Below, one piece after another: positions 8,878 through 61,878 of a stretch of DNA of 64,000 nt. The position numbers were made by a program, and so were the translations under genes. Source of the DNA: an uncultured Syntrophaceae bacterium (lineage in GTDB: Bacteria > Desulfobacterota > Syntrophia > Syntrophales > UBA2192); contig CAZVLL010000006.1 in the NCBI GenBank assembly GCA_964628025.1, positions 946-64,945 on the forward strand, in the 5' to 3' direction. Under the pieces are notes generated by a model. That model saw only the letters and a program-made list of their open reading frames with translations. It did no database searches and had not been told where the DNA came from. Every line of letters starts with the position of its first letter. The stretch's first letter is position 1.

Positions 8878-10223
8878 CACGGATTTCGTCCTCTGCTGTC
8901 GGCGCCTTGCGCCTCGATTGCGGCTTGCACGCCGACTGCTCCCCCCAGCCCCTGCGGATCCGCGATCCGGGCAAGCGCCCGGTCCTCGGCAAAGGTGTAA
9001 TGCCCATCGATCGCACGATCCAAAAACTCCAGCTGCTTGCGCAACTCGGGATGACGATGCGGCGGCAGGGTTTGCATTAGATTTTCCAGCATGGAGCGCA
9101 TCCGCCGCGTGATCTGGACGCTGCCAACGCCGCAATGACGTATTTCGGTGCACGTAAGGTGTGCGAAGTCCTCCCAGTTCGGCGTCCGGAAAACGAGCCG
9201 CAGCTCGCCGGCTTCGTCGCAGATTTCCTCGCGACTGACATGCCGCAGACCGACGTGCCGAAGCAGACGGTGAAGCTGGTCGATGGCGAGCACGGCCGTC
9301 GTCGGATCGTTGATGGCCGGTGACAACGCCTTGATCGCGATGTCGACCAGGATACGGAATGCAAAGGTCGGGTCCTGCTCGAGAGTACGCTCGGACCCGA
9401 GAGCGACTGCCGCCAGCAGCTGACGGTCGTTGATAGCGCTGGCGCCGCCATACAACCGGAACAAAGGCTCATCCGCCGCCAGGAAGTCGCCCACCTGGGG
9501 GATGAATTCAATCATCCCGTTGGCATGCCGCGCCTGCTTGACCAGTCCCTTCAGATCCAGGGCGAGCACGATCCCAGAGGTGCCCGCGTTGGTGACGGTC
9601 CGATCCGGGGATGCGGGTCTGCCGGACGACTCGTCGGGGCGCGGGGGTGCGGTGAATTCCGGATAGACACTCCGGATGACCGCGATCCCGGACTTCCCCA
9701 CACGCTGTACGATGCTGACAGGACGCAGCAATCGCGCCGCGTAGTCGATCAGGTAGAGGAACACGACAAGCGAGACCAGCCCGAGTGTTCCTGCGATAAA
9801 GGTGTTGAACTGGTGGACGGTCTCACCGCCCATCCTGGTCAACACCCTCAGGTTAAACAGCAGGGTAAAGACAAAATAGCCGACGGTGAACCGGATCGCG
9901 TTGTCCCGCAGCAGTGTTGTCGCGATGATCCGTGGCGTGTACTGCCCGCCTGCGACTTGAATCGCAACGAGCAGCGATCCGAATGTGAATACGAGGAAGG
10001 AAAGGTTTATCGTGACGATCGTCTCGAGCATCGTCCGCGCTCCCGCCATGGACAGACCCATGAATGCGGTCATTTCATCGATCCGTCCGGTCTGCATGAG
10101 CCAGCCGCCGATGCCGTGCGTGATACGGGTGACCACCATATAAGCCAACACGGCGAAAAACGGCACGAGCCACAGCGAGGATCTGATGTAGCTCTTGATG
10201 ATGTACTGCCAATTCCAGCGCAT
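8877..10223 (-). CDS. DUF2254-like integral membrane protein
   Basis: MRWNWQYIIKSYIRSSLWLVPFF... followed by four to five TM segments and a soluble C-terminal domain, which fits my memory of DUF2254. RBS GAAGGAGAAGGA lies upstream of ATG 10223. Confidence 0.6.
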   Translation of the reverse strand: MRWNWQYIIKSYIRSSLWLVPFFAVLAYMVVTRITHGIGGWLMQTGRIDEMTAFMGLSMAGARTMLETIVTINLSFLVFTFGSLLVAIQVAGGQYTPRIIATTLLRDNAIRFTVGYFVFTLLFNLRVLTRMGGETVHQFNTFIAGTLGLVSLVVFLYLIDYAARLLRPVSIVQRVGKSGIAVIRSVYPEFTAPPRPDESSGRPASPDRTVTNAGTSGIVLALDLKGLVKQARHANGMIEFIPQVGDFLAADEPLFRLYGGASAINDRQLLAAVALGSERTLEQDPTFAFRILVDIAIKALSPAINDPTTAVLAIDQLHRLLRHVGLRHVSREEICDEAGELRLVFRTPNWEDFAHLTCTEIRHCGVGSVQITRRMRSMLENLMQTLPPHRHPELRKQLEFLDRAIDGHYTFAEDRALARIADPQGLGGAVGVQAAIEAQGADSRGRNP

Positions 10224-10556
10224 ATTTCCTTCTCCTTCAGGTTGAGGGCGCAGTTCGCAGAGCTGATTTCTCCGGGCTTGGTAGACGATGCATCCCGGAT
10301 AGGACAAAATTGATGTAAAATACTATCAGGGATTGGATGGCTTAACAAGGCGCAATCCCCTATGCGAACAACCCTGCACGCTGGAGGTGCAGAGACGTTA
10401 ATTCAGGAAGACCCAGGACATGAAAAGTTAAACGACAGTGTTGATGACTTGCAGTCAACCATTGTGTTTTGATGAGAAACGAAGTAGATTTAAAGAAACG
10501 TTGAGAGGATATCGGGACCAATTTCCAGCAAATTCCTTCCATGGGATGCTTCAACG

Positions 10557-11543
10557 ATGACCGGCACCGTGAAGACCTATCGTTCGAGACGCTCTTCGAT
10601 GCGATTGATGATCTTTGTCTTCGCGATTCTGATATTGTTGGGCGCAGCGCCGGTTGACGTGCAGGCACAGCCATCGACGGTCATTGGGACAAACGTTCAG
10701 AAACTAGCCAATGGCGTGCTGACCCTGATGGGATACAGCCTTACGCCGGATGTGACGACAGGCTCACTGTCCTTTAACAGTCCGTCAACGGGGACTCCGG
10801 GTCTAGCGATGTCATCGTTAGGTGGCGGCTTTACCCTCAGCAAGGACTTTCCGCTTTACCTCGAGGGAACCGCGGCGTATAGCCGTTACGATCCCACGTT
10901 CGTGGTCTCCGACGGCACAAATTCGCGGTCGATCCCGGCCAAATGGAACAGTCTTTCCGCCACGGGGGGCATCGGCTGGGATTTTCCCATCGCCCGGGAC
11001 CTCGTTTTTCGCCCCATTTTTAACTTCTCGCTAGGGACCGTCCAGAGCGATCTGAAGGTTGCGGGGAGCTACATCGGGAATCAAACCGGGCAGGACCTCT
11101 CGTTCCTGGACAGGGGCCGCCTTGATGCGGTAGGGCTTGGCGGTTCGTTGATGCTGGACTACGAACGCTATCGGCCTGAGAACGAGATCGACGTCGAACT
11201 GCGCTATACGAACATCTACCTTCAGAGCATCAATGGTTCGTCGGAGGCCGTATCGGGGCACGCAGACGCGCAGAACCTGAGTCTTTGGGCCCGTTGGCGC
11301 GCACCGACCGGCATGACCGCGCTCGAGAGGCCGCTACGATATGTGCTCGAGTTCTCGCACACGCAATTCCTTGGCGATCTTCGCGGCGCGCTGGGATTCG
11401 ACTGGCTCACGTCGTTGGGTGCCGGCTTTGAACTCGACTCAAGCAAATACCCCATCATCATCACCCGCACGCGCCTCCTGGCTCGATACAAGTTCGGTGA
11501 CGGCGTGCAAGGGTGGTCCATCGGGCTCGCGGTAAGCTTCTAA
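10557..11543 (+). CDS. outer-membrane beta-barrel protein (solitary autotransporter-barrel-like)
   Basis: Signal peptide ...APVDVQAQ, Gly/Ser/Thr-rich alternating strands, and C-terminal ...GLAVSF. The true start may be ATG 10599 (MRLMIFVF...). Confidence 0.55.
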   Translation: MTGTVKTYRSRRSSMRLMIFVFAILILLGAAPVDVQAQPSTVIGTNVQKLANGVLTLMGYSLTPDVTTGSLSFNSPSTGTPGLAMSSLGGGFTLSKDFPLYLEGTAAYSRYDPTFVVSDGTNSRSIPAKWNSLSATGGIGWDFPIARDLVFRPIFNFSLGTVQSDLKVAGSYIGNQTGQDLSFLDRGRLDAVGLGGSLMLDYERYRPENEIDVELRYTNIYLQSINGSSEAVSGHADAQNLSLWARWRAPTGMTALERPLRYVLEFSHTQFLGDLRGALGFDWLTSLGAGFELDSSKYPIIITRTRLLARYKFGDGVQGWSIGLAVSF

Positions 11544-53187: not shown

Positions 53188-54294
53188 ATGCGGAGCCACG
53201 CACCCGTTCACAATCTGCTGATGGTGGACGATGAGCCGCAGATTCTCAACAGTCTCAAGCGGGAGCTGAAGCAGGAAGGGTACCGGATCTACACGGCAAA
53301 TGACGGTCCGGCAGGGCTCGATATCGTCCGGAATCACGATATCGATGTGGTCCTGTCGGATCAGATGATGCCGCAGATGGACGGCATCGAGTTCCTGGGA
53401 GAGGTCGGCCGGCTGAAGCCCGACGCGATTCGGATCATGCTCACGGCACACGGGTCTTTCGAATCCGCTTCGATGGCCATCAATCGTTCCAATGTGTTCG
53501 GCTACCTGACGAAGCCCTGGCACTCGGAAGATCTGAAAACATTCCTGCGGAGGGCCTTCGAGCACCATGATCTCATCATGGAAAATCGAAAGCTCCAGCG
53601 CCTGACCGAGGATCAGAACGAGCAACTCAGACAGTTCAACAGCGAGCTGGAAAGCATCATCCGCGAGAGAACGGTCCAGCTCACTGAGGCCGTGCGAGAA
53701 GGAATCTCCATGATGGCCCTCGCGGCGGACGCGAAGGAGGGCGGCACGGGGATGCATGTTCAGCGTATGTTCAGCCTGACGCTCCGCATCGGACTGAATC
53801 TGGGACTGGGATTCGGCGAGGCGGAGCAGATCGCCTTCGCGAGCATGATGCACGATGTGGGAAAACTCATGATTCCCGATGCAATCCTGAACGGAACGAA
53901 CCCTCCGTTGGACGACGAGCGCGAGCTGTTGAAACAGCACACCGTGCTCGGTGTCCGGATGCTGGGGAGCAAGCCGTTCTACCGTATTGCCAGGGACATT
54001 GCGCTGAGTCATCACGAACGATGGGACGGCGGGGGGTACCCCTACGGACTGAAGCAGGAAGCCATTCCGCTGGCCGCCCGGATCGTGGCCGTTGCCGATC
54101 TGTTCGACAGCTTGATGCATTCCCGATCATCGGGACGGAAACCGACCATCGACGAAGCGCGCGCCGCCATGCGGGCACAGTCCGGAGGTGCCCTTGACCC
54201 GGCGATCTTGGAGGCGTTTTGGGAACTGAACTGGGATTTCGACGACGAACGCGCACCGGAAAACGTCCGTTACGATAGACGCAACAAATCCTGA
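53188..54294 (+). CDS. response regulator with HD-GYP phosphodiesterase domain (RpfG-like)
   Basis: The REC is nearly identical to the previous gene. HD-GYP motifs HDVGKLMIP and HHERWDGGGYPYGL. Confidence 0.88.
   Translation: MRSHAPVHNLLMVDDEPQILNSLKRELKQEGYRIYTANDGPAGLDIVRNHDIDVVLSDQMMPQMDGIEFLGEVGRLKPDAIRIMLTAHGSFESASMAINRSNVFGYLTKPWHSEDLKTFLRRAFEHHDLIMENRKLQRLTEDQNEQLRQFNSELESIIRERTVQLTEAVREGISMMALAADAKEGGTGMHVQRMFSLTLRIGLNLGLGFGEAEQIAFASMMHDVGKLMIPDAILNGTNPPLDDERELLKQHTVLGVRMLGSKPFYRIARDIALSHHERWDGGGYPYGLKQEAIPLAARIVAVADLFDSLMHSRSSGRKPTIDEARAAMRAQSGGALDPAILEAFWELNWDFDDERAPENVRYDRRNKS
53203..53627 (+). repeat. 425-nt direct repeat, copy 2
   Basis: See copy 1. Identity is >90% by eye, including synonymous positions. 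Confidence 0.9.
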
Positions 54295-54319
54295 AACTGC
54301 CAGGGAGCGTGAAGACCTG

Positions 54320-55720
54320 ATGTCCCCCGATCAAAAACACAAAATTCTTCTTGTCGATGACGAGGAATCGATCACGAAAGCGCTGCAGCGCCTGTTCCGT
54401 CGGGAGAACCACGACATTCTCACCGCATCGGGCGGTGAAGAAGGTCTGCGCATTCTGCGCGAATCGTCAGAACCCTTTTCTCTGATCATATCCGATCAGA
54501 GAATGCCGGGCATGAACGGGTCCGAATTCCTCGAACAGGCGAGGGCCATCGTCCCCAGGTCCATCCGGATCCTTCTTACGGGGTACTCGGATATGACCGC
54601 CATCGTCGATGCCGTCAACCGGGGACAGATCCACCGATACATGACGAAGCCCTGGAATGACGACGATATTCTCTTCGCGGTCCGGCAGTCCCTGGAGCAT
54701 TACGATCTCGTGAGCGAGAACGTTCGTCTCCTGGATTTGACCCGGAAGCAAAATGACGAACTGACCGATCTGAACCGGACCCTGGAGACGAAGGTCGAGG
54801 AGAGGTCCCGGGAGATCCTCATCAAGAATCAGGAGTTGTCCCGGCTGAACAAAGATCTGGAGATGAACCTCTACAATGCCGTGAAGGCCTTTTCGTCGCT
54901 TGTGGACAGGTTCAGCCCGGCACTGGCAGGTCACTGCCGCCGCGTCGCCCAGCTTTCCCGGGAGATCGGGGGGCTCCTGGATCTGCCCGAAAACGAACTG
55001 ATCCAGGTCGAGATCGCAGCGCACCTCCACGATTTCGGCAAACTCTCTTTTCCTCCCAAGCTCATCGAGTACCGGGAAGAGACGTGGACGCTGGAAGAGA
55101 AACGCCTGTACCGGAGTCATCCGCAACTAGGCCAGGAGACGGTGCACTTCATCAACCGGCTCGATCAGGTCGGTCTGATCATCCGCAGCCACCACGAGCG
55201 CTACGATGGCCACGGGTTTCCCGATCAGCTGGCCGATGAGGAGATCCCCATCGGAGCGCGGATCATCACGGTAGTTGACGCGTTCGACAAGATGGCGAAT
55301 CTGCACGTCGACATCGGCCAGACAGTGAAAGGTCTGCGTCACACGGAGGGCCGGATCCATGAGGATGAACTGTTCTACAAGGGCGCGGTGTCGCATCTCA
55401 GAAAGGAAAGCCTTCTGTCCTACGATCCCGATGTCGTGAAAGTATTCCTCTCGCTTTTGCAATCCCGCGCGACAGCGGACGGTCAAAAAACGGCCGGCAA
55501 AAGCCATGTTCACTACTTTCAGAAAGCGTCGACGCGTCCCGAGCAGAAGATGTCCATGCAGGAACTGTCGCACGGCATGACCATTTCGAGGGCGCTTTAC
55601 ACGAAGAGCGGGCGCTTTCTGCTGCCGGCGCATACGGTGCTGACCGAAAACTACATTGAAAAAATCCTTTCCCTGCATGAATCGGACTCCGTCAGTACGA
55701 TATACGTATTCTTGAAATGA
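54320..55720 (+). CDS. response regulator with HD-GYP-type domain (GFP variant) and ~100-aa C-terminal extension
   Basis: REC (ILLVDDEES...LIISDQRMPGMNG...YMTKPW). HDFGKLSFP and HHERYDGHGFPDQL. Confidence 0.85.
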   Translation: MSPDQKHKILLVDDEESITKALQRLFRRENHDILTASGGEEGLRILRESSEPFSLIISDQRMPGMNGSEFLEQARAIVPRSIRILLTGYSDMTAIVDAVNRGQIHRYMTKPWNDDDILFAVRQSLEHYDLVSENVRLLDLTRKQNDELTDLNRTLETKVEERSREILIKNQELSRLNKDLEMNLYNAVKAFSSLVDRFSPALAGHCRRVAQLSREIGGLLDLPENELIQVEIAAHLHDFGKLSFPPKLIEYREETWTLEEKRLYRSHPQLGQETVHFINRLDQVGLIIRSHHERYDGHGFPDQLADEEIPIGARIITVVDAFDKMANLHVDIGQTVKGLRHTEGRIHEDELFYKGAVSHLRKESLLSYDPDVVKVFLSLLQSRATADGQKTAGKSHVHYFQKASTRPEQKMSMQELSHGMTISRALYTKSGRFLLPAHTVLTENYIEKILSLHESDSVSTIYVFLK

Positions 55721-55741
55721 GAGGACATTCAGAGGACACGC

Positions 55742-56629
55742 ATGGATACCAAGACAAGAGAGACCCTGGGAGATGCCGAGCACCAGCTGAAGCGTCTCAG
55801 TACGATACGAGAACTGCCGACCATGCCCGTCGTCCTGATGCGGCTCAATCGAATGCTGCAGGATGATGTGGCCTCGATCGAAAAAATCGGCCATCTGATT
55901 GAGACGGATCAGGCACTGTCCTCGAAGATCCTCAAGCTCGTCAATTCCGCTTTCTTCGGGTTCCCGTCCCGGGTAAGCAACATTTCCCATGCGCTCATGA
56001 TCCTCGGGTTCAACACCGTGCGGAATGCAGCCATTTCCGTGTCCCTCATCGATGCCATGCGTATCAAGAAAGGCGTCGAGGATTTCGACATTAAGGAATT
56101 CCTGCGGCATGCCATCGCCGTGGCCGTTGCCGGGAAGTACCTGGCCAGAAAGGCCCGCATGCGCGAGCCCGATGATGCCTTCACGGCAGGGCTGCTACAC
56201 GACATCGGCAAGCTGGTCATGATCCAGTTCCTCCCTGATCTTTTCGATATCGTCTGGAAGAGGGTTCGCGAAGACAAGATCACCTTCTTCGATGCAGAAA
56301 AAATGGAACTCCCGCTGACGCATGCCGCCATCGGGGCTCATCTCTCCCATCTCTGGCAGTTTCCCGCGGGGCTGGTCTCGTCCATCGCCTATCACCATGA
56401 ACCGCCCCAGCCGTCCGAGTATTCTACGTCGATCATGACGGTTTGCCTGGCCAACAGGGCCGTCAATCATATCCGAGCCGGAATCCCGATGGATGCCGGG
56501 ATTGCCCTGAAATTCCCCGGGCAGGAAGCCTTTGTCCGGGACAAGGTGGCCACGGTCTCCCAATGGTTTGGCGATTTGGAAGAGGAGATCGAAGAGGCAT
56601 GCAGCTTTTTCCTGGAAGGGAGGGACTGA
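55742..56629 (+). CDS. HDOD domain protein
   Basis: LPTMPVVLMRLNRMLQDD...ALSSKILKLVNSAFFGFPSRVSNISHALMILGFNTVRN and HDIGKLVM are typical of HDOD. Confidence 0.85.
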   Translation: MDTKTRETLGDAEHQLKRLSTIRELPTMPVVLMRLNRMLQDDVASIEKIGHLIETDQALSSKILKLVNSAFFGFPSRVSNISHALMILGFNTVRNAAISVSLIDAMRIKKGVEDFDIKEFLRHAIAVAVAGKYLARKARMREPDDAFTAGLLHDIGKLVMIQFLPDLFDIVWKRVREDKITFFDAEKMELPLTHAAIGAHLSHLWQFPAGLVSSIAYHHEPPQPSEYSTSIMTVCLANRAVNHIRAGIPMDAGIALKFPGQEAFVRDKVATVSQWFGDLEEEIEEACSFFLEGRD

Positions 56630-57462
56630 TGGGCGAGAAGGTGCTCTCAATTCTGTGCATCGACGACGAGGAGAACATCCTGAGTGCGATGAAGCGTCTC
56701 CTGCGGCGGGAAGGGTACCGGATATTCACCACCGCGCACACCGCCGAGGCCCTCGAAATCCTGGAACAGAATTCCATCCAGCTGGTCATCTCGGATCAGA
56801 GAATGCCGCAGACATCGGGCACCGACTTTCTGTCGTTCGTCAAGGAACGCTATCCCGAGGTGATCCGGATCATCCTCACGGGCTATACCGATGTGGATTC
56901 CATCGCAGAGGCCGTCAACAAGGGCCTCATCTACAAATTCATCCTGAAGCCCTGGAATGACGAGGACCTCAAGCTGGATATCCGTCAGGCCCTCGAACAG
57001 TACGAGCTGATACTGACCAACAAGAGGCTCCATGAAAAGGTTATTGAGCAAAACGAAGAACTCCGGGTGATCAACGAGAATCTCGAGGAAATGGTTTGGA
57101 AACGGACCCTGGAACTGGAAATCAAAAATCAATCCCTGGAACTTGCCCAGGCCATCCTGGAAGACCTTCCCCTTCCGATTATCGGCGTCGGTTCCGACGG
57201 GATCGTCGCGTTCATCAACAAGCAGACGGCCTGTCTCCCCGGGGTCTGGTCCGCTGCCATCGTCGGCCGGGAACTTGGCAGTACGTTTCCGGCCGAGATT
57301 ACACGAGAAATCCTGGGACATCTCTCGACGATCGAAACCGTCCAATTCTTGCGATGCACGATCGACGAGACCCTTTTCGACATGTTTCTCTCCCCGCTGT
57401 CAGGGAGATTCCGAGGCCGGGGTCTGGTCATCACCCTGCGGCACATATCTACGGATGGCTGA
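56629..57462 (+). CDS. response-regulator receiver fused to a PAS-like domain
   Basis: The start ATG overlaps the HDOD stop (TGATG). REC (ILCIDDEEN...LVISDQRMPQTSG...FILKPW), coiled-coil linker, then a PAS-like C-terminus (ILEDLPLPIIGVGSDGIVAFINK). Confidence 0.8.
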   Translation: MGEKVLSILCIDDEENILSAMKRLLRREGYRIFTTAHTAEALEILEQNSIQLVISDQRMPQTSGTDFLSFVKERYPEVIRIILTGYTDVDSIAEAVNKGLIYKFILKPWNDEDLKLDIRQALEQYELILTNKRLHEKVIEQNEELRVINENLEEMVWKRTLELEIKNQSLELAQAILEDLPLPIIGVGSDGIVAFINKQTACLPGVWSAAIVGRELGSTFPAEITREILGHLSTIETVQFLRCTIDETLFDMFLSPLSGRFRGRGLVITLRHISTDG

Positions 57463-57678: not shown

Positions 57679-57707
57679 TTGACAGGAACCATTCATTTTT
57701 CTATACT
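57679..57707 (+). promoter_or_regulatory. near-consensus sigma70 promoter for the DUF4384-caspase cluster
   Basis: TTGACA - 17 nt - TATACT, about 59 nt upstream of ATG 57766. Confidence 0.6.
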
Positions 57708-57765
57708 CGCGCAGCAAAAACGCAGATGTTCGAACGGCAGATACAGAACCAAGGGAGGTTGATGT

Positions 57766-58644
57766 ATGAACAGAAAGAACATGATGTTTCTCGCGGTGAT
57801 GATGCTTGCCTGTGCAATGGCTTTCATTCCCTTTTCGGCCGATGCCCAGAAAGCCCCCAAGGGGGCCAAGGCGATCTTCGACAGCGGAGACGGTGCTGCC
57901 GTACGGATGTCTTCCGGCGGCCCGGCCCCAAGCACAGCTCCGGCACCGGAGAAATATGTGGGCATTTCCTACAAGCTCGCCCTTCTCAAGGAAAACGGCG
58001 AATTCTCCATCGTTCCCCGGACGAGGACGTTCCGGTCCGGCGAACGGATCAAGATGCTCGTCCGGACGAACCGGCCCGGGTACCTTACGATCATGAACAT
58101 CGGCCCCAAGGGCAACACGACGGTTCTCTTTAACGAATATGTCGAAGCAAAACAGCTCTACGAGATTCCCAAATCAACGGCCCTGAAGTTTGCCGGCCCC
58201 CCCGGGACCGAGAAGGTCATGATCATGTTGTCGGGCAACCCGAACCCAATGGTCGGCGGACAGTCCACGACCGTTGCCAGCGGACCCGCCGCGTCGCCCT
58301 CGCTGCCACCGCCCCCCTCGTCCGGTCCGATGAGCTCGGCACCCCCCAGCATGCCTCCGCTTCCTCCGGGGCCCGTCGCCGACGCCGGCAGCAGCATACC
58401 CCCGCCACCACCCATGGCACTTGCCAGCAGCATGCAGGGATCCAAGGACATCGTTGTGGATCAGAACAAGACCGGGTACGCCGTGATTTCCCCCAAGGCG
58501 GGTTGGAAACCCTCGGCGAAGGGGACGAAGGACATCGTCCTGGAAAACGATGCAAGAGACGGCAGCAATTACGGTGTCGTTCCTGCCGCAGCGCTCGACG
58601 AGGGAGGCATCCTCACGCTTGACCTCAAGCTGACACACAAATAA
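57766..58644 (+). CDS. secreted DUF4384-domain protein with Pro-rich linker
   Basis: Signal peptide ...PFSADAQ. FRSGERIKMLVRTNRPGYLTIMNIGPKGNTTVLFN matches my memory of DUF4384. Contains a PSLPPPPSSGPMSSAPPSMPPLPPGP tract. Confidence 0.65.
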   Translation: MNRKNMMFLAVMMLACAMAFIPFSADAQKAPKGAKAIFDSGDGAAVRMSSGGPAPSTAPAPEKYVGISYKLALLKENGEFSIVPRTRTFRSGERIKMLVRTNRPGYLTIMNIGPKGNTTVLFNEYVEAKQLYEIPKSTALKFAGPPGTEKVMIMLSGNPNPMVGGQSTTVASGPAASPSLPPPPSSGPMSSAPPSMPPLPPGPVADAGSSIPPPPPMALASSMQGSKDIVVDQNKTGYAVISPKAGWKPSAKGTKDIVLENDARDGSNYGVVPAAALDEGGILTLDLKLTHK

Positions 58645-58656
58645 AAGGAGAAATGC

Positions 58657-59400
58657 ATGAACGCCTTTCGCCTCAAATCGGTCAGTCTGCTCGTGGTCTG
58701 CGCCTTTCTCTTGTCCTCCTGTGCATCGGTACTGCCCGATCCGTCCCAGATCCGGACGGAAGAGGAGCGTGTCGATGCGCGGAACAAGTGCATTGCCCTG
58801 TACACTGTAGGCGGCGCCGCAGCCGGCGCCCTCATCGGCGGACTCATCGGCGGCAGCTGGCAGTCGGCCGGTGTCGGAAGCCTCGTCGGTGGAGGATTCG
58901 GGTTCCTCGTTGCCTGGGGACACTGCCTGAGCCTGTACTCGACATTGCAGAGCCAGCCTGCGGCCGGCTATCAGCAGACAGCCCGGCAGGTGGGGTACAA
59001 CCCGTCCCAGGGAAATGTCACCAAGGTCCAGAGCTTCAATGTCACACCGGGAACGGTCGCTCCCGGGAACACCGTGAATCTTGGAGGTTCCTACTACGTC
59101 ATGGCGCCTGAAGGGGCCAAGGAGGCGAAGGTCACCGAAACGCGGTACGTGAAATACTTTGATCCCGCCAAGAATGAGTGGACTCAGCTCGGAGAAGTTG
59201 ACCAGGAAATCACGGCGGCGCCGGGATCCAGAAAAGCCGACGGCAAATTCGACATCCCGAAGGACGTTCCCGAGGGGAAATACCGCGTGGGCTTCAAGGT
59301 GGCCTCCGGAGGCAAGGAAGATGCCGTGGAAAAGGACCTGGTCGTGACAAAGGGGACGGCATCCCTGGAGACCCGCATGGCCTCCGTCGACCTGCGTTAG
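58657..59400 (+). CDS. lipoprotein with glycine-zipper segment and beta-rich C-terminal domain
   Basis: Lipobox LLSSC. GGAAAGALIGGLIGGSWQSAGVGSLVGGGFGFLVAWG. RBS AAGGAG. Confidence 0.6.
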   Translation: MNAFRLKSVSLLVVCAFLLSSCASVLPDPSQIRTEEERVDARNKCIALYTVGGAAAGALIGGLIGGSWQSAGVGSLVGGGFGFLVAWGHCLSLYSTLQSQPAAGYQQTARQVGYNPSQGNVTKVQSFNVTPGTVAPGNTVNLGGSYYVMAPEGAKEAKVTETRYVKYFDPAKNEWTQLGEVDQEITAAPGSRKADGKFDIPKDVPEGKYRVGFKVASGGKEDAVEKDLVVTKGTASLETRMASVDLR

Positions 59401-59422
59401 AAACCGGTCCCAGGAGCAAGTC

Positions 59423-60670
59423 ATGAAGAATCGGGCTTTATCAGCCCTGATTGTCCTGATCGCAGCCGTGATGGCGCTCGCGATGCCGGGATCCGTCACG
59501 GCGCAGTCTACGTCCGTCACCGACGACCACATCCGGCAGATCAACGGCCTCTTTGCGAAGAATGGCGTTCCCGGCGGGCTTGTCGTCCTGGATTCCTACG
59601 GCCGTCTGGAGCTCAAGGGGGATTACGAAGACGAATTCCAGGTCGACCGGGCCTTTTCGCTTGCCCAGACCGTTGTCGGTGTGAAGTGGGTCTCGCCCGT
59701 CACGCCGGAGAACATCAAGGTCAAGGCATGGGAAAAGAAACTCGGCTCGCTCTTCAGCAGGGCTGCGGTCCTGAAGCCCCAGGTACGCGGCGACGGTCCC
59801 GTAGGCTCCATCCGGAATCGCTATGCGCTCGTCGTCGGTGTCGGGAAGTTCAAAAGCGGCATTACGCCTCTCCAGTTTGCCGTCAGGGACGCCACCCTGT
59901 TTTACCGGTTCCTCAACGAGCAGGCAGGCTTTTCGAAGAACAACACCTATTTCCTGGCCGACCAGAATGCCACCTCGTCGAACATCCTCAAGTACCTCAC
60001 AGCCATCCGAAATGCTGCGCAGGAGGACGATCTTGTTGTCGTCTACATGAGCAGCCACGGGACACCTCCGGACAAGTTCGGCGGCGTCTACATCGTAACC
60101 TACGACACGGAGGTCAATCCCCGCGAGCGGGTCTGGCACACGTCGGTGGCCGAAAGCGCACTCAAAGATTTCGTCGAGAACCTCAAGGCGCGCAGGCTGG
60201 TCATGGTCCTGGACACCTGTTACAGCAACGGAGCCTACAGGGCAATTCCCGGGTTCCTCCCGCCGGGCGGGAAGTCTCTCGGTATCGGAGATGAGAATGA
60301 GGGCTACGGGGTGTCCAAGGCTCAGGGAAAGAGGCTCTTCGGGGCCAAGGACATTGTTCTCGAGGATGAGCCCCGGAAGGCTGCCTCCACCGGTAAAAGC
60401 ATCGAAAGCAAGGAATCCTATGGAAAGGTCCTCATCAGCGCCAGCAGCGCCGGAGAGAAATCCTGGGAATCGGACCAGCTTCGCAACAGTGTCTTCACCT
60501 ACTACTTCGTGGACGGGATGAAGCGCTACGACGGATCGGTGAAGGACGCCTTCGATTACTCCAAACCCAGGACACAGCAGAGGGTTCAGGAGGAAAAAGG
60601 GGCCGATATCACCCAGACCCCCCAGGCCATGGCCACCAACGAAAACTGGAATATGCGTGTCAAACGATAG
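59423..60670 (+). CDS. secreted caspase-family (peptidase C14) protein with N-terminal BON-like domain
   Basis: Signal peptide ...GSVTAQS. BON-like LVVLDSYGRLELKGDYEDEFQVDRAFSLAQTVVGVKWV. Caspase dyad contexts VVYMSSHGT (His) and VMVLDTCYSNGA (Cys). Confidence 0.75.
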   Translation: MKNRALSALIVLIAAVMALAMPGSVTAQSTSVTDDHIRQINGLFAKNGVPGGLVVLDSYGRLELKGDYEDEFQVDRAFSLAQTVVGVKWVSPVTPENIKVKAWEKKLGSLFSRAAVLKPQVRGDGPVGSIRNRYALVVGVGKFKSGITPLQFAVRDATLFYRFLNEQAGFSKNNTYFLADQNATSSNILKYLTAIRNAAQEDDLVVVYMSSHGTPPDKFGGVYIVTYDTEVNPRERVWHTSVAESALKDFVENLKARRLVMVLDTCYSNGAYRAIPGFLPPGGKSLGIGDENEGYGVSKAQGKRLFGAKDIVLEDEPRKAASTGKSIESKESYGKVLISASSAGEKSWESDQLRNSVFTYYFVDGMKRYDGSVKDAFDYSKPRTQQRVQEEKGADITQTPQAMATNENWNMRVKR

Positions 60671-60692
60671 TTGCATGTCAAGGAGGAGATCC

Positions 60693-61289
60693 ATGAAAAG
60701 AACGTTCATCGCGTCACTGGCCATCGTCAGCTTCATCGCAATAGCCCTTCTCGGGTGTGGGCAGCAGTCGTCACCTCCGCCGCCACCGGCCTCTCAGGCA
60801 CAGGCACCGGCCGCCCCGGCTCCGGCAGCGCCCGGGCAGCCCTCACTGGAAGTGACGGGTCACCTGAAACAGGGCATGGCCTACGTCAGCACGGCAAAGA
60901 ACGCCAACTCGCCGGCCGTTTTCAATGAGAATATCAACAACGCCATCAATGAATTCTCGAACGCCATTAAGAAGGACCCGGCTTACGCCACAGCGTATTC
61001 GAACCGGGCTGTCGCCTACATGATGCAGAAAAAATACAATCTCGCCCTTGACGATCTCAAGAAAGCGAAGGAACTGAAGCCCGCCGATCCGGCGATCCGG
61101 TACAACCTGGCGTCGTGCCATTCCCTCATGGGCAATGTCGATCTGGGCTTCGTTGAGCTCGATGCCGCCCTGGCAAACGGGTTCAACGACTATGATTCGC
61201 TCCGCAAAGATCCCGACATCGCCAATCTGAGGAAGCACGCCGATTGGCGGAAAACCCTGGAGAAGTACAAGGTCTTCATCGACAAGTAG
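60693..61289 (+). CDS. TPR-repeat lipoprotein
   Basis: RBS AGGAGGAG. Lipobox LLGC, Pro/Ala-rich linker, then three to four TPR units (AYSNRAVAYMMQKKYNLALDDLKKAKELKP...). Confidence 0.7.
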   Translation: MKRTFIASLAIVSFIAIALLGCGQQSSPPPPPASQAQAPAAPAPAAPGQPSLEVTGHLKQGMAYVSTAKNANSPAVFNENINNAINEFSNAIKKDPAYATAYSNRAVAYMMQKKYNLALDDLKKAKELKPADPAIRYNLASCHSLMGNVDLGFVELDAALANGFNDYDSLRKDPDIANLRKHADWRKTLEKYKVFIDK

Positions 61290-61317
61290 ATTAGCCTCAC
61301 ACCAGAATTGGAAAAAT

Positions 61318-61357
61318 GCCTTGCCCCACCACGAAACGGTCGGGCAGGGCTTTTTTT
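61318..61357 (+). terminator. intrinsic terminator after the caspase cluster
   Basis: GCCTTGCCC - 14-nt loop - GGGCAGGGC (one G-U pair) followed by TTTTTTT. Confidence 0.75.
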
Positions 61358-61440
61358 GGATGCTGACGTTCCTGGTATGGCTGATGATGCAGCCGGGTGG
61401 ATCACCAAGCAAGCAGGATGAGAAGCGGTGGAGCCGGGAT

Positions 61441-61716
61441 TTAGAGCGGGCGGCGGTTGCGTCTGCGGTCGAGGGCTTCGGCCATCAGAGGCAAAAACAG
61501 GGATCCGAAGGGCAGCAGGATGACGAGGAGAACAGGAATGTAGTGGGCAAGGTGTCGGATATAGCCCTTGAGTGCCCTGATTTCCTCCTTCGTCCACGGC
61601 ACTTTGGTATTCCTTGTCTTCATGAGCAGAGCCATGAACCCCCTCATGGACTCGGCCTCGGAATAGATCAGTTTTTTGTATCGTTCCAGTTGTTTATTCA
61701 AAAACCTTCGCAGCAT
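61441..61716 (-). CDS. small membrane protein with LETM1-RBD-like motif
   Basis: 91 aa. KTRNTKVPWTKEEIRALKGYIRHLAHYIPVLLVILLPFGSLFLPL parallels the LETM1-type pattern (basic helix, then ...VPF...LP...). The RBS is weak. Confidence 0.4.
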   Translation of the reverse strand: MLRRFLNKQLERYKKLIYSEAESMRGFMALLMKTRNTKVPWTKEEIRALKGYIRHLAHYIPVLLVILLPFGSLFLPLMAEALDRRRNRRPL

Positions 61717-61878
61717 GTCCTTTGCTTTCTCTGATCCGGGTTGCTGTCCTATTCAATCGGACAGCGAGCCGCATTTCTTGAAATAAAAATACAGGACATC
61801 TGTTTTCAAATCCGCACGAGGATGCCGAAGCCGATGCGTCTGGCATGAATATTGATTGATAAGAGACAGGAGCGGTTT

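What the first reader, a model, noticed from the sequence alone, without database searches (positions are those of the whole stretch)
57679..61357. Four-gene secreted caspase module (DUF4384 / glycine-zipper lipoprotein / BON-caspase / TPR lipoprotein) with its own strong promoter and terminator
A near-consensus sigma70 promoter (TTGACA-17-TATACT) and an intrinsic terminator bracket four co-directional genes with 12-22 nt spacers. All four have signal peptides or lipoboxes:
1. A DUF4384 protein with a Pro-rich tether.
2. A lipoprotein with a long GxxxG glycine zipper (pore- or oligomer-forming potential).
3. A peptidase-C14 caspase with an intact His/Cys dyad (SSHG / DTCYS) preceded by a BON-like domain.
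4. A TPR lipoprotein.

DUF4384 is often fused or adjacent to bacterial caspases (established association), but the function is unknown. A fully periplasmic, envelope-anchored caspase together with a glycine-zipper membrane protein looks like an envelope-directed proteolytic switch. It could serve envelope stress, cell death or defence, or processing of an OM component, and it is essentially uncharacterised.
Basis: partly seen in the sequence, partly recalled or inferred. Interest (0 to 1): 0.7.

Follow-up and report, generated by a model that had tools for sequence, protein, structure and literature searches.

The report
Exported caspase operon with matching partner motif
This is a real, uncharacterised four-gene operon for a cell-envelope caspase-like protease, conserved across several bacterial phyla, and its DUF4384 partner protein carries copies of the protease's own predicted self-cleavage sites, so the pair looks like a dedicated protease and substrate that can be tested directly.

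Summary
Window 57679-61357 holds a promoter (11 of 12 consensus positions), four co-directional genes with strong ribosome-binding sites and 12, 22 and 22 nt spacers, and a strong intrinsic terminator.

- **g1:** signal peptide, DUF4384 domain, proline-rich linker.
- **g2:** lipoprotein with a glycine-zipper helical hairpin bracketed by two invariant cysteines, then an Ig-like domain.
- **g3:** signal peptide, BON-like domain, metacaspase-type peptidase C14 with invariant His212 and Cys266.
- **g4:** TPR lipoprotein.

The g1-g2-g3-g4 order is kept in about 60 species genomes from several phyla, with unrelated flanks.

New finding: G-x-K-D-[IL]-V-[VL]-E occurs three times in the window's six-frame translation. 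One copy is in the disordered p20-p10 linker of the caspase; two are in the g1 tail. The motif is conserved and co-varies between the two proteins. A profile comparison aligns the g1 tail with the whole caspase linker. A distant second family repeats the pattern, and one relative fuses the caspase to DUF4384.

Best reading (inferred, not shown): a Lys-specific envelope protease that cleaves itself and g1 at G-x-K|D-I-V. Its physiological role is unknown. I found no defence-system context and no support for a pore-forming role of g2. This is a new variant of a known kind.

The parts
57679..57707 (+). Sigma-70-type promoter, TTGACA-17 nt-TATACT
   Evidence: 11 of 12 matches. Both hexamers are invariant in 10 close relatives although the spacer and flanks diverge.
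57766..58644 (+). g1: exported DUF4384 protein, 292 aa. It has a signal peptide, an invariant N-terminal G-A-K, the DUF4384 domain (residues 88-159), a proline-rich linker (about residues 165-218), and a conserved tail with two G-x-K-D-I-V motifs that ends in ..L-x-H-K.
   Evidence: Pfam DUF4384 E 9.7e-14, and 23 of 23 relatives hit it. Alignments give invariant G33 A34 K35, G225, D228, L289 and H291.
57862..57876 (+). g1 N-terminal G-A-K-A-I site (residues 33-37), about 6 residues after the predicted signal-peptidase cut
   Evidence: G33, A34 and K35 are invariant in 23 sequences. It matches the relaxed motif.
58438..58461 (+). g1 tail motif 1, GSKDIVVD (residues 225-232)
   Evidence: One of only 3 matches to G.[KR]D[ILMV][IV][ILMVF][DE] in the window's six-frame translation. 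Present in most orthologues.
58522..58545 (+). g1 tail motif 2, GTKDIVLE (residues 253-260), 37 residues before the C-terminus
   Evidence: It co-varies with the caspase linker motif.
58657..59400 (+). g2: lipoprotein, 247 aa. Lipobox LLSSC, a glycine-zipper helical hairpin (residues 35-93) bracketed by invariant C45 and C90, then an Ig-like beta-sandwich (residues 98-230).
   Evidence: AF2 model with pLDDT 81. Alignment invariants. Foldseek finds generic Ig, macroglobulin and arrestin-like hits. Glycine-zipper Pfam hits are below cut-off for the window protein but are on record for many relatives.
59423..60670 (+). g3: exported BON-like plus metacaspase-type peptidase C14, 415 aa
   Evidence: Pfam C14 E 3.9e-19. 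H212 and C266 are invariant. AF2 pLDDT 79.5. Foldseek hits MALT1, AtMC9, AtMC4, Yca1 and GSU0716.
59522..59722 (+). g3 BON-like domain (residues 34-100)
   Evidence: Alpha-beta-beta-alpha-beta topology with pLDDT about 90. 7 of 17 relatives hit Pfam BON, best E 8.3e-5. Faint OsmY match, E 0.078.
60245..60421 (+). g3 p20-p10 linker (residues 275-333), predicted disordered, holding two conserved Lys sites: GGKSL (K284, nt 60266-60280) and GAKDIVLE (K309, nt 60341-60364)
   Evidence: pLDDT below 50 for residues 280-330. Both sites are present in 67 of 67 family members. The strict motif was located.
60693..61289 (+). g4: TPR lipoprotein, 198 aa. Lipobox ALLGC, a Pro/Ala-rich tether, about 3 TPR repeats and a TPR end-of-group domain.
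   Evidence: TPR_11 E 3.5e-13. TPR_END_plus E 9.1e-18. The start was chosen by the ribosome-binding site AAGGAGGAG. Lipobox found in 42 of 61 orthologous ORFs by a strict pattern.
61318..61357 (+). Intrinsic terminator: 13-bp GC-rich stem, 7-nt loop, seven T
   Evidence: -31.8 kcal/mol, z -4.55, 0 of 200 shuffles as stable. A partly conserved hairpin is present in relatives.

Best explanation
The operon encodes a self-contained, envelope-located protease-substrate cassette.

**Shown.**
- There are four exported proteins in a gene order that is conserved across phyla.
- g3 is a metacaspase-type (C14B-like) cysteine protease with an intact His/Cys dyad.
- g3 has an Asp two residues before the catalytic Cys, at the position of the metacaspase S1 aspartate.
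- g3 has a roughly 60-residue disordered linker between p20 and p10 that carries two invariant Lys sites (GGK284-SL and GAK309-DIVLE).
- g1 carries the same motifs once at its mature N-terminus and twice in its tail.
- The g1 tail aligns as a whole with the caspase linker, and the motifs co-vary between the two proteins.

**Inferred.**
- g3 is made as a zymogen, docks on a membrane through its BON-like domain, and cuts itself after K284 and/or K309, as type II metacaspases do.
- The active enzyme then cuts g1 at G-x-K|D-I-V. This separates the DUF4384 domain and its proline-rich linker from a roughly 37-residue C-terminal piece.
- The two lipoproteins hold the system at the membrane. g2 would anchor it through a disulfide-stapled glycine-zipper hairpin and an Ig-like domain. 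g4 would act as a TPR adaptor, possibly binding the invariant ..L-x-H-[KR] C-terminus of g1, in the way NlpI presents substrates to Prc.

**Unknown.** The trigger and the downstream effect. An envelope-damage or stress signal is my best guess.
For: **Conservation of the operon.**
- The g1-g2-g3-g4 order is kept in nearly all of about 60 species-level genomes of Syntrophales, Syntrophorhabdia, Nitrospirota, Geobacter, Betaproteobacteria, Methylomirabilis and Rokubacteria.
- No fifth gene is conserved, and the flanks are unrelated.

**Protease type.**
- Pfam C14 hit, and H212 and C266 invariant.
- D264-T-C266 aligns with metacaspase D-S-C-H-S-G.
- The best structural neighbours are the Arg/Lys-specific MALT1 and metacaspases.
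- Metacaspases cut strictly after Arg or Lys, and type II members are activated at a conserved basic residue in an insertion after L4 (PMC4357240).

**The shared motif.**
- The linker is disordered (pLDDT below 50 for residues 280-330) yet holds islands of conservation.
- The strict motif has 3 hits in 127,996 six-frame residues of the window, all in g1 or g3.
- It has only 3 hits in 418,747 residues of other ORFs from the loci, and all three are frameshifted g1 fragments.
- The relaxed motif occurs 3.15 times per g1 protein and exactly twice in 67 of 67 g3 proteins. It occurs 0.23 times per g2 protein and never in g4. Background is 0.22 per 1000 residues.
- hhalign aligns g1 residues 224-280 with g3 residues 281-344, at E 1.6e-4 and 38% identity, pairing both Lys sites.
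- The residue after K-D co-varies: Ile in both proteins in 40 loci, Leu in both in 17, mixed in 5. Some genomes have identical 7-mers in both proteins.

**Independent support.**
- A distant second family (Thermoanaerobaculia, 31-33% identity) repeats the pattern with different residues. The caspase linkers read GQKSLVLEA, GGKAMVLEG and DGKALLLEG. The partner tails read GSKTLLVEE, GGKNLLLETE and GKKDLYLD.
- A relative, P0123, fuses the BON-caspase to a DUF4384 domain.
- DUF4384 forms the C-terminal domain of some Csx30 proteins, which are the substrates of the caspase-like Csx29.
Against: - No cleavage has been observed. The motif could be a docking or pseudosubstrate element rather than a cut site.
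- The AF2 linker is of low confidence, so no model places K284 or K309 in the active site.
- hhalign probability is only 50%.
- The Ile/Leu co-variation is confounded by phylogeny. I count about three independent lineages, not 17 events.
- In the fused relative P0123, the part after the DUF4384 domain lacks the motif.
- Export was judged by eye.
- The membrane that holds g4 is unclear, because many orthologues have Asp at position +2 after the lipid-modified Cys.
- The roles proposed for g2 and g4 rest on analogy only.
Confidence: 0.5

Rival explanations
1. The shared motif is a binding element, not a cut site. In one version g1 is a pseudosubstrate inhibitor or chaperone that occupies the caspase groove, as securin does for separase. 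In the other version, both the caspase linker and the g1 tail are ligands for the TPR lipoprotein g4, which assembles the complex.
For: The same data as for the main model: motif conservation and co-variation. TPR domains typically bind short extended peptides (general knowledge). The g1 tail pattern (KDIVLE ... NYGVVP ... ILTLDLKL) looks like beta-strands. hhalign extends the similarity into the first p10 strand of the caspase.
Against: The invariant residue is a Lys, which is exactly the P1 residue expected for a metacaspase-type S1 pocket. Pseudosubstrates usually lose the scissile residue (general knowledge). The caspase motif sits where type II metacaspases are cleaved. g4 itself has no such motif, and no test of TPR binding was possible.
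Confidence: 0.2
2. g3 is a dedicated maturation enzyme or transpeptidase, like legumain, GPI8 or a sortase. It would process g1 as a structural envelope protein, for example by exposing a C-terminal Lys for covalent attachment to peptidoglycan or to another envelope component.
For: g3 and 16 of 17 relatives also score against Peptidase_C13, the legumain/GPI8 family. Cleavage after Lys would leave a C-terminal Lys. g1 has a long proline-rich spacer of the kind seen in envelope-spanning proteins. Genes for SLT, M23 and LysM cell-wall enzymes lie nearby in some loci.
Against: The C13 scores are marginal and lie under the C14 match. The cell-wall neighbours are not conserved with the module. There is no evidence of any acceptor.
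Confidence: 0.12
3. The module is an anti-phage or programmed-cell-death system in which the caspase activates the glycine-zipper protein g2 as a membrane pore. This is.
For: Caspase-like proteases are effectors in several bacterial defence systems (general knowledge; a generic caspase model in PADLOC hits g3, E 1.6e-12). The phylogenetic distribution is patchy, with 50-65% identity between phyla, which suggests horizontal transfer. One locus lies next to mobile-element genes and another next to an Xre-RES toxin-antitoxin pair.
Against: g2 lacks the cleavage-like motif (0.23 relaxed matches per protein, against 3.15 for g1). g2 has a conserved lipobox, a cysteine pair that would staple the hairpin, and an Ig-like domain. 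No partner protein hits PADLOC. There is no NTPase, sensor or gasdermin. All parts are outside the cytoplasm. Most flanks are housekeeping genes.
Confidence: 0.1
4. The module is a general periplasmic quality-control or turnover protease with accessory lipoproteins, like NlpI-Prc. In this view g1 is just another accessory subunit, and the real substrates lie elsewhere in the proteome.
For: The pairing of a TPR lipoprotein with a periplasmic protease resembles NlpI-Prc (weak NlpI match, E 2.6e-5).
Against: The motif is confined to g1 and g3 in all sequence examined. The family is rare rather than a housekeeping one: 143 g2 clusters in a database of 5.8 billion proteins.
Confidence: 0.08

Closest known systems
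Type II metacaspases (for example Arabidopsis AtMC4 and AtMC9) and bacterial orthocaspases, peptidase subfamily C14B
   Same: Caspase/haemoglobinase fold, His/Cys dyad, Asp two residues before the catalytic Cys, and a long linker between p20 and p10 with a conserved basic residue. AtMC9 and AtMC4 are among the best Foldseek matches and AtMC4 among the best HMM matches. From my own knowledge, AtMC4 releases a short C-terminal peptide (Pep1) from PROPEP1 after damage, which would parallel a cut 37 residues from the g1 C-terminus.
   Different: g3 has a Sec signal peptide and an N-terminal BON-like domain. It acts outside the cytoplasm. It is encoded with three dedicated exported partners. Sequence identity to solved metacaspases is only about 15%.
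Craspase (type III-E CRISPR): the caspase-like protease Csx29 with its substrate Csx30
   Same: A caspase-family protease is paired with a dedicated, co-encoded substrate that is cut in a flexible linker. In some Csx30 groups the C-terminal domain is a DUF4384 domain (bioRxiv 10.1101/2022.08.17.504292).
   Different: There is no CRISPR or RNA-guided component here. Csx29 is a CHAT-type protease. Everything here is exported.
NlpI-Prc (a TPR lipoprotein adaptor plus a periplasmic protease in E. coli)
   Same: A TPR lipoprotein is encoded or functions with a periplasmic protease, which suggests adaptor-mediated substrate presentation (analogy from my own knowledge).
   Different: Prc is a serine protease. 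The g4 match to the NlpI model is far below cut-off (23.9 bits against 250). The genes of NlpI and Prc are not in one operon.
Glycine-zipper outer-membrane lipoproteins (Pfam Gly-zipper_YMGG, Rick_17kDa_Anti; the SlyB/Pcp type)
   Same: A lipobox followed by a glycine-zipper helical hairpin, then a beta-rich domain.
   Different: The window protein scores below the Pfam cut-offs. The hairpin is bracketed by an invariant Cys pair. The C-terminal domain is a larger Ig-like sandwich. Foldseek against the PDB did not list a SlyB structure among the 50 best matches shown.
BON-domain envelope proteins (OsmY, DolP/YraP)
   Same: Alpha-beta-beta-alpha-beta topology and a conserved Gly. From my own knowledge, BON domains of DolP bind membrane phospholipid.
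   Different: Here there is a single BON-like domain fused to a protease. The window protein has no significant Pfam hit. The held library has no paper that mentions both a metacaspase and a BON domain.

Membership tests
Peptidase C14 (caspase family), subfamily C14B-like (metacaspase/orthocaspase type) | Significant match to the family profile | tested here: met
   PF00656 scores 69.7 bits against a cut-off of 21.4, E 3.9e-19. 16 of 17 relatives match.
Peptidase C14 (caspase family), subfamily C14B-like (metacaspase/orthocaspase type) | Catalytic His-Cys dyad at the ends of strands beta3 and beta4 | tested here: met
   H212-G213 and D264-x-C266 are invariant in 17 sequences. They align with the S-G-H-G and D-S-C-H-S-G motifs of Yca1 and AtMC4.
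Peptidase C14 (caspase family), subfamily C14B-like (metacaspase/orthocaspase type) | Caspase/haemoglobinase fold | tested here: met
   The AF2 core has pLDDT above 90. Foldseek matches MALT1, AtMC9, Yca1 and GSU0716 at E 1e-10 to 1e-12.
Peptidase C14 (caspase family), subfamily C14B-like (metacaspase/orthocaspase type) | Acidic S1 pocket giving Arg/Lys specificity | tested here: inconclusive
   D264 (two residues before the catalytic Cys) and D156 are invariant and align with the metacaspase D-x-C and N-D-A positions (TbMCA2 pocket residues from PMC4357240). The pocket geometry was not inspected and activity was not measured.
Type II metacaspase | Extended linker after L4 carrying a conserved basic residue needed for activation | tested here: met
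   A roughly 60-residue disordered insertion spans residues 275-333. K284 and K309 are conserved in 67 of 67 family members. The defining feature is taken from PMC4357240.
Type II metacaspase | Cytosolic enzyme without an N-terminal prodomain or targeting signal | tested here: not met
   g3 has a signal peptide and a BON-like N-terminal domain. It works like a type II metacaspase but is not filed as one.
BON domain (PF04972) | Profile match | tested here: inconclusive
   The window protein has no hit. 7 of 17 relatives hit, best E 8.3e-5. The OsmY model of NCBIfam gives E 0.078.
BON domain (PF04972) | Alpha-beta-beta-alpha-beta topology with a conserved Gly | tested here: met
   H34-46, E52-56, E62-68, H71-85 and E98-100 at pLDDT about 90. 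G66 and G86 are invariant.
DUF4384 (PF14326) | Profile match above the gathering score | tested here: met
   51.7 bits against 27. 23 of 23 relatives match.
Glycine-zipper lipoproteins (PF13441, PF05433, PF13488) | Profile match above the gathering score | tested here: not met
   The window protein scores 16.8 bits against cut-offs of 28.9 and 24.2 for PF13441 and PF05433, and 15.8 bits against 25 for PF13488. Many relatives carry a precomputed PF13441 hit.
Glycine-zipper lipoproteins (PF13441, PF05433, PF13488) | Lipobox plus a Gly-rich helical hairpin | tested here: met
   Lipobox L-S-S-C, with S21 and C22 nearly invariant. Helices 35-65 and 68-93 appear in the AF2 model.
TPR repeat proteins | TPR profile matches above cut-off | tested here: met
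   TPR_11 49.4 bits against 26.8, and TPR_1 40.6 against 27.8. TPR_END_plus 64 bits against 32.
Known anti-phage defence systems (PADLOC) | Several components matching one system's models | tested here: not met
   Only a generic caspase model hits g3. g1, g2 and g4 have no hits.
Gasdermin-protease systems | A gasdermin gene next to the protease | tested here: not met
   No gasdermin family was found in any of the four proteins. No further gene is conserved with the module.
NlpI-Prc | Orthology of the TPR lipoprotein to NlpI | tested here: not met
   23.9 bits against a cut-off of 250. This is an analogy only.

The most novel reading that the evidence does not exclude
The module may be a previously unrecognised type of envelope proteolytic signalling. 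The partner protein would have copied the protease's own activation linker, so that activation of the exported metacaspase (for instance by membrane or cell-wall damage sensed through the BON or DUF4384 domains) is converted directly into cleavage of the partner. That cleavage would release a defined roughly 37-residue C-terminal peptide or free the DUF4384 domain. This would be a bacterial envelope counterpart of plant metacaspase-4/PROPEP damage signalling.
Probability: 0.25. Interest if true: 0.8.

Novelty: new variant of a known kind. Interest (0 to 1): 0.62.

Why it matters
Bacterial caspase homologues are numerous, but few have a known substrate, and exported ones are essentially unstudied. 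DUF4384 is a widespread domain with no assigned function. It is repeatedly found fused to proteases and kinases.

This module offers a concrete, falsifiable pairing. It predicts a cleavage consensus (G-x-K|D-[IL]-V), named residues to mutate (C266, K284 and K309 in g3; K35, K227 and K255 in g1), and two candidate membrane adaptors.

If the prediction is confirmed, three things follow. It would give a first function for DUF4384 as a protease-coupled partner. It would show that caspase-type activation linkers can be copied into substrates. And it would open a route to finding out what an envelope caspase senses.

Tried and rejected
2. **Bcl-2 match of g1 (E 6e-4).** It falls in the proline-rich, low-complexity stretch. 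I treat it as spurious.
3. **7onh match of g2.** The target is a designed protein and no stretch passes on its own. I ignored it.
4. **Solved structure for DUF4384.** A profile search of PDB sequences found nothing below E 0.7.
5. **Known RNA element in the leader or operon.** Rfam found nothing in the longer leader of a relative. In the window it gave only a chance-level RsmY match (E 0.42).
6. **A fifth conserved gene.** Clustering of all flanking ORFs found none.
7. **Foreign base composition.** The module is only slightly richer in G+C (0.59-0.62 against 0.54-0.58). This is explained at least partly by Pro, Gly and Ala codons.
8. **Alignment A1 for the genome scan.** It was too diverse, so the smaller alignment A2 was used.
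9. **Exact look-up of the window's own caspase (P0001).** It found no contig on record.
10. **Literature searches.** Searches for the module, for a BON-caspase and for a periplasmic metacaspase found nothing relevant.

Full report
**1. What is in the sequence**

The region 57679-61357 is a complete transcription unit. A promoter-like site, TTGACA-17-TATACT (57679-57707), matches 11 of 12 consensus positions. The scan as a whole is not enriched over shuffles. However, both hexamers are invariant in ten close relatives whose spacers and flanks have diverged, which argues that the site is functional.

Four co-directional ORFs follow:
- g1, 57766-58644
- g2, 58657-59400
- g3, 59423-60670
- g4, best started at the ATG at 60693, ending at 61289

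Each is preceded by a strong ribosome-binding site. The spacers are 12, 22 and 22 nt.

The unit ends with a 13-bp GC-rich hairpin and seven T (61318-61357). Its free energy is -31.8 kcal/mol, z is -4.55, and no shuffle of 200 folds as well.

Database names for near-identical proteins place the source in Syntrophales.

Upstream lies a separate cluster of two response-regulator/HD-GYP genes, an HDOD gene and a response-regulator gene. Downstream lie a small minus-strand ORF, an SLT lytic transglycosylase gene and a DnaJ/response-regulator gene.

**2. The four proteins**

*g1 (292 aa).* It has a signal peptide (..FSADA|QK), a DUF4384 domain (Pfam E 9.7e-14), a proline-rich linker of variable length, and a conserved C-terminal tail.

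*g2 (247 aa).*
- It has a lipobox (LLSSC).
- In an AF2 model (pLDDT 81) it shows a helical hairpin at residues 35-93 made of the glycine zipper, followed by an Ig-like beta-sandwich.
- Two cysteines, C45 and C90, are invariant in 31 sequences. They sit opposite each other at the open end of the hairpin, which suggests a disulfide and so an extracytoplasmic location.
- The glycine-zipper Pfam scores of the window protein are below cut-off, although many relatives carry the hit.
- Foldseek finds only generic Ig-like folds.

*g3 (415 aa).*
- It has a signal peptide (..SVTA|QS).
- Its N-terminal domain has alpha-beta-beta-alpha-beta topology at high confidence. Pfam recognises this domain as BON in 7 of 17 relatives.
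- It has a caspase domain (Pfam E 3.9e-19).
- H212 and C266 are invariant.
- The D-T-C motif aligns with the D-S-C of metacaspases.
- The best structural matches are MALT1 and metacaspases, which cut after basic residues (PMC4357240).

*g4 (198 aa).* It has a lipobox (ALLGC), a Pro/Ala-rich tether and TPR repeats.

**3. Conservation**

A scan of one genome per species found full-length orthologues of g3 (49-89% identity) in about 60 genomes. These come from Syntrophales, Syntrophorhabdia, Nitrospirota (including Magnetobacterium), Geobacter, several Betaproteobacteria, Methylomirabilis and Rokubacteria.

In nearly all of them tblastn finds g1, g2 and g4 in the same order and orientation. A few are rearranged or truncated: L046, L060, L061, L062 and L065.

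Clustering of all flanking ORFs finds no fifth conserved gene. Annotated neighbourhoods differ from locus to locus. They include mobile-element genes, a sigma-54 activator, an Xre-RES pair, a chemoreceptor, formate dehydrogenase, and SLT or M23 enzymes.

The families are small. g2 has 143 clusters and g1 has 350 in a database of 5.8 billion proteins. The high identity between phyla and the variable flanks suggest that the cassette moves as a unit.

**4. The new observation: a shared motif**

The caspase has a roughly 60-residue linker between p20 and p10 that AF2 leaves disordered (pLDDT below 50 for residues 280-330). Two short islands within it are conserved: G-G-K284-S-L and G-A-K309-D-I-V-L-E.

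The tail of g1 contains GSKDIVVD and GTKDIVLE, and its mature N-terminus begins with an invariant G-A-K-A-I.

Specificity of the motif:
- The pattern G.[KR]D[ILMV][IV][ILMVF][DE] has three matches in the whole six-frame translation of the 64-kb window. All three are these sites.
- It has only three matches in 418,747 residues of other ORFs from the fetched loci. All three are frameshifted pieces of g1.
- A relaxed pattern occurs 3.15 times per g1 protein and exactly twice in all 67 g3 proteins. It occurs 0.23 times per g2 protein and never in g4. Background is 0.22 per 1000 residues.

Extent of the similarity: a profile-profile comparison aligns g1 residues 224-280 with g3 residues 281-344 (E 1.6e-4). 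It pairs both Lys sites and continues into the first p10 strand.

Co-variation: the residue two positions after the Lys is Ile in both proteins in 40 loci, Leu in both in 17, and mixed in 5. Several genomes carry identical 7-mers in both proteins. This is confounded by phylogeny, but the Leu state appears in at least three separate lineages.

Independent support:
- A distant second family in Thermoanaerobaculia has the order TPR, caspase, a 438-aa protein, DUF4384 partner. It repeats the relationship with different residues. The linkers read GQKSLVLEA, GGKAMVLEG and DGKALLLEG. The partner tails read GSKTLLVEE, GGKNLLLETE and GKKDLYLD.
- One relative fuses the BON-caspase to a DUF4384 domain.

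**5. Interpretation**

Three facts bear on the reading. Metacaspases cut after Lys or Arg. Type II members are activated at a conserved basic residue in an insertion after L4. The motifs lie in a disordered segment.

The simplest reading is therefore that G-x-K|D-I-V is the cleavage site of this protease, used both for self-processing and on g1. Cutting at K255 would separate the DUF4384 domain and its linker from a 37-residue C-terminal piece that ends in the invariant L-x-H-[KR].

By analogy only, I propose three further points. The BON-like domain docks the enzyme on a membrane. g2 is a stable membrane anchor. g4 is a TPR adaptor, as NlpI is for Prc.

The finding that some Csx30 substrates of the Craspase protease end in a DUF4384 domain fits the idea that DUF4384 is a protease-coupled partner domain.

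None of the cleavage steps has been observed. The physiological trigger and output remain unknown.

**6. Alternatives**

- The motif could instead be a docking or pseudosubstrate element, or a TPR ligand.
- The enzyme could mature or attach a structural envelope protein. It also scores weakly against the legumain/GPI8 family.
- A defence or cell-death system with g2 as a pore is the least supported. g2 lacks the motif and looks like a stable lipoprotein. No partner matches PADLOC. The neighbourhoods are mostly housekeeping.

**7. Novelty and verdict**

The parts are known kinds: a C14B-type protease, DUF4384, a glycine-zipper lipoprotein and a TPR lipoprotein. Dedicated caspase-substrate pairs are also known in the cytoplasm.

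Three things are new. The first is the fully exported four-gene arrangement conserved across phyla. The second is the BON-caspase fusion, for which the held library has no paper. The third is the copying of the protease's activation linker into its partner.

I rate it a new variant of a known kind. Interest is moderate to high because it makes the function of an envelope caspase and of DUF4384 directly testable.

Noticed in passing
window 57708-57765, compared with L001, L003-L009, L011 and L066 upstream of g1: The close relatives carry about 75 extra, GC-rich, partly conserved nucleotides between the promoter and the ribosome-binding site. The window lacks this segment, so its leader is only about 58 nt. 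The longer leader has no Rfam match.
   Followed up: partly
window 61290-61851, compared with L001 12028-14969 and L003 about 9160-11401: Several close relatives have three extra genes between the module and the SLT gene: one of about 216 aa, an M48 peptidase with TPR repeats of about 500 aa, and one of about 236 aa. The window has none of them. Its terminator is followed directly by a small minus-strand ORF (61441-61716, 91 aa, no Pfam hit) that is conserved in Syntrophales relatives.
   Followed up: partly
window 53188-57462: Upstream is a co-directional cluster of two response-regulator/HD-GYP-type (HD_5) genes, an HDOD gene and a response regulator with an unassigned C-terminal part. This looks like a cyclic-di-GMP-type signalling cluster. 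It is not conserved next to the module in other genomes.
   Followed up: partly
g2 orthologues in Nitrospirota (for example L082 9001-10041; P0373, P0376, P0379, P0388): Some g2 orthologues carry an additional C-terminal bacterial SH3 domain (PF08239, PF06347) after a low-complexity spacer. This could be a cell-wall-binding extension.
   Followed up: no
g4 orthologues in L012-L055: In many orthologues the residue after the lipid-modified Cys is Asp (C-D-K..), which is the inner-membrane retention signal in E. coli. The window and its closest relatives have C-G-Q-Q. So g4 may sit in a different membrane from g2, or its location may differ between lineages.
   Followed up: no
L068 6786-8102, L073 6829-8145, L075 6545-8134: The Thermoanaerobaculia version of the cassette has, in place of g2, a conserved 438-aa exported protein. 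In L073 this protein also contains a G-A-K-S-L motif near its C-terminal part. I did not analyse it further.
   Followed up: no
L061 5191-7231, L046, L017 and L027: In a few metagenome-assembled genomes the g1, g2 or g3 genes are split or truncated. These are either frameshifts from assembly errors or real decay of the module.
   Followed up: no
window 61472-61605: There is a weak RsmY-like covariance-model match (17.7 bits against a gathering score of 57, E 0.42). It is most likely chance.
   Followed up: no
P0148 (604 aa), residues about 470-604: A distant BON-caspase relative with a lipobox-like N-terminus ends in a long lysine-rich repeat (K-x-x-K-E/A-T/A-K...). Its meaning is unknown.
   Followed up: no
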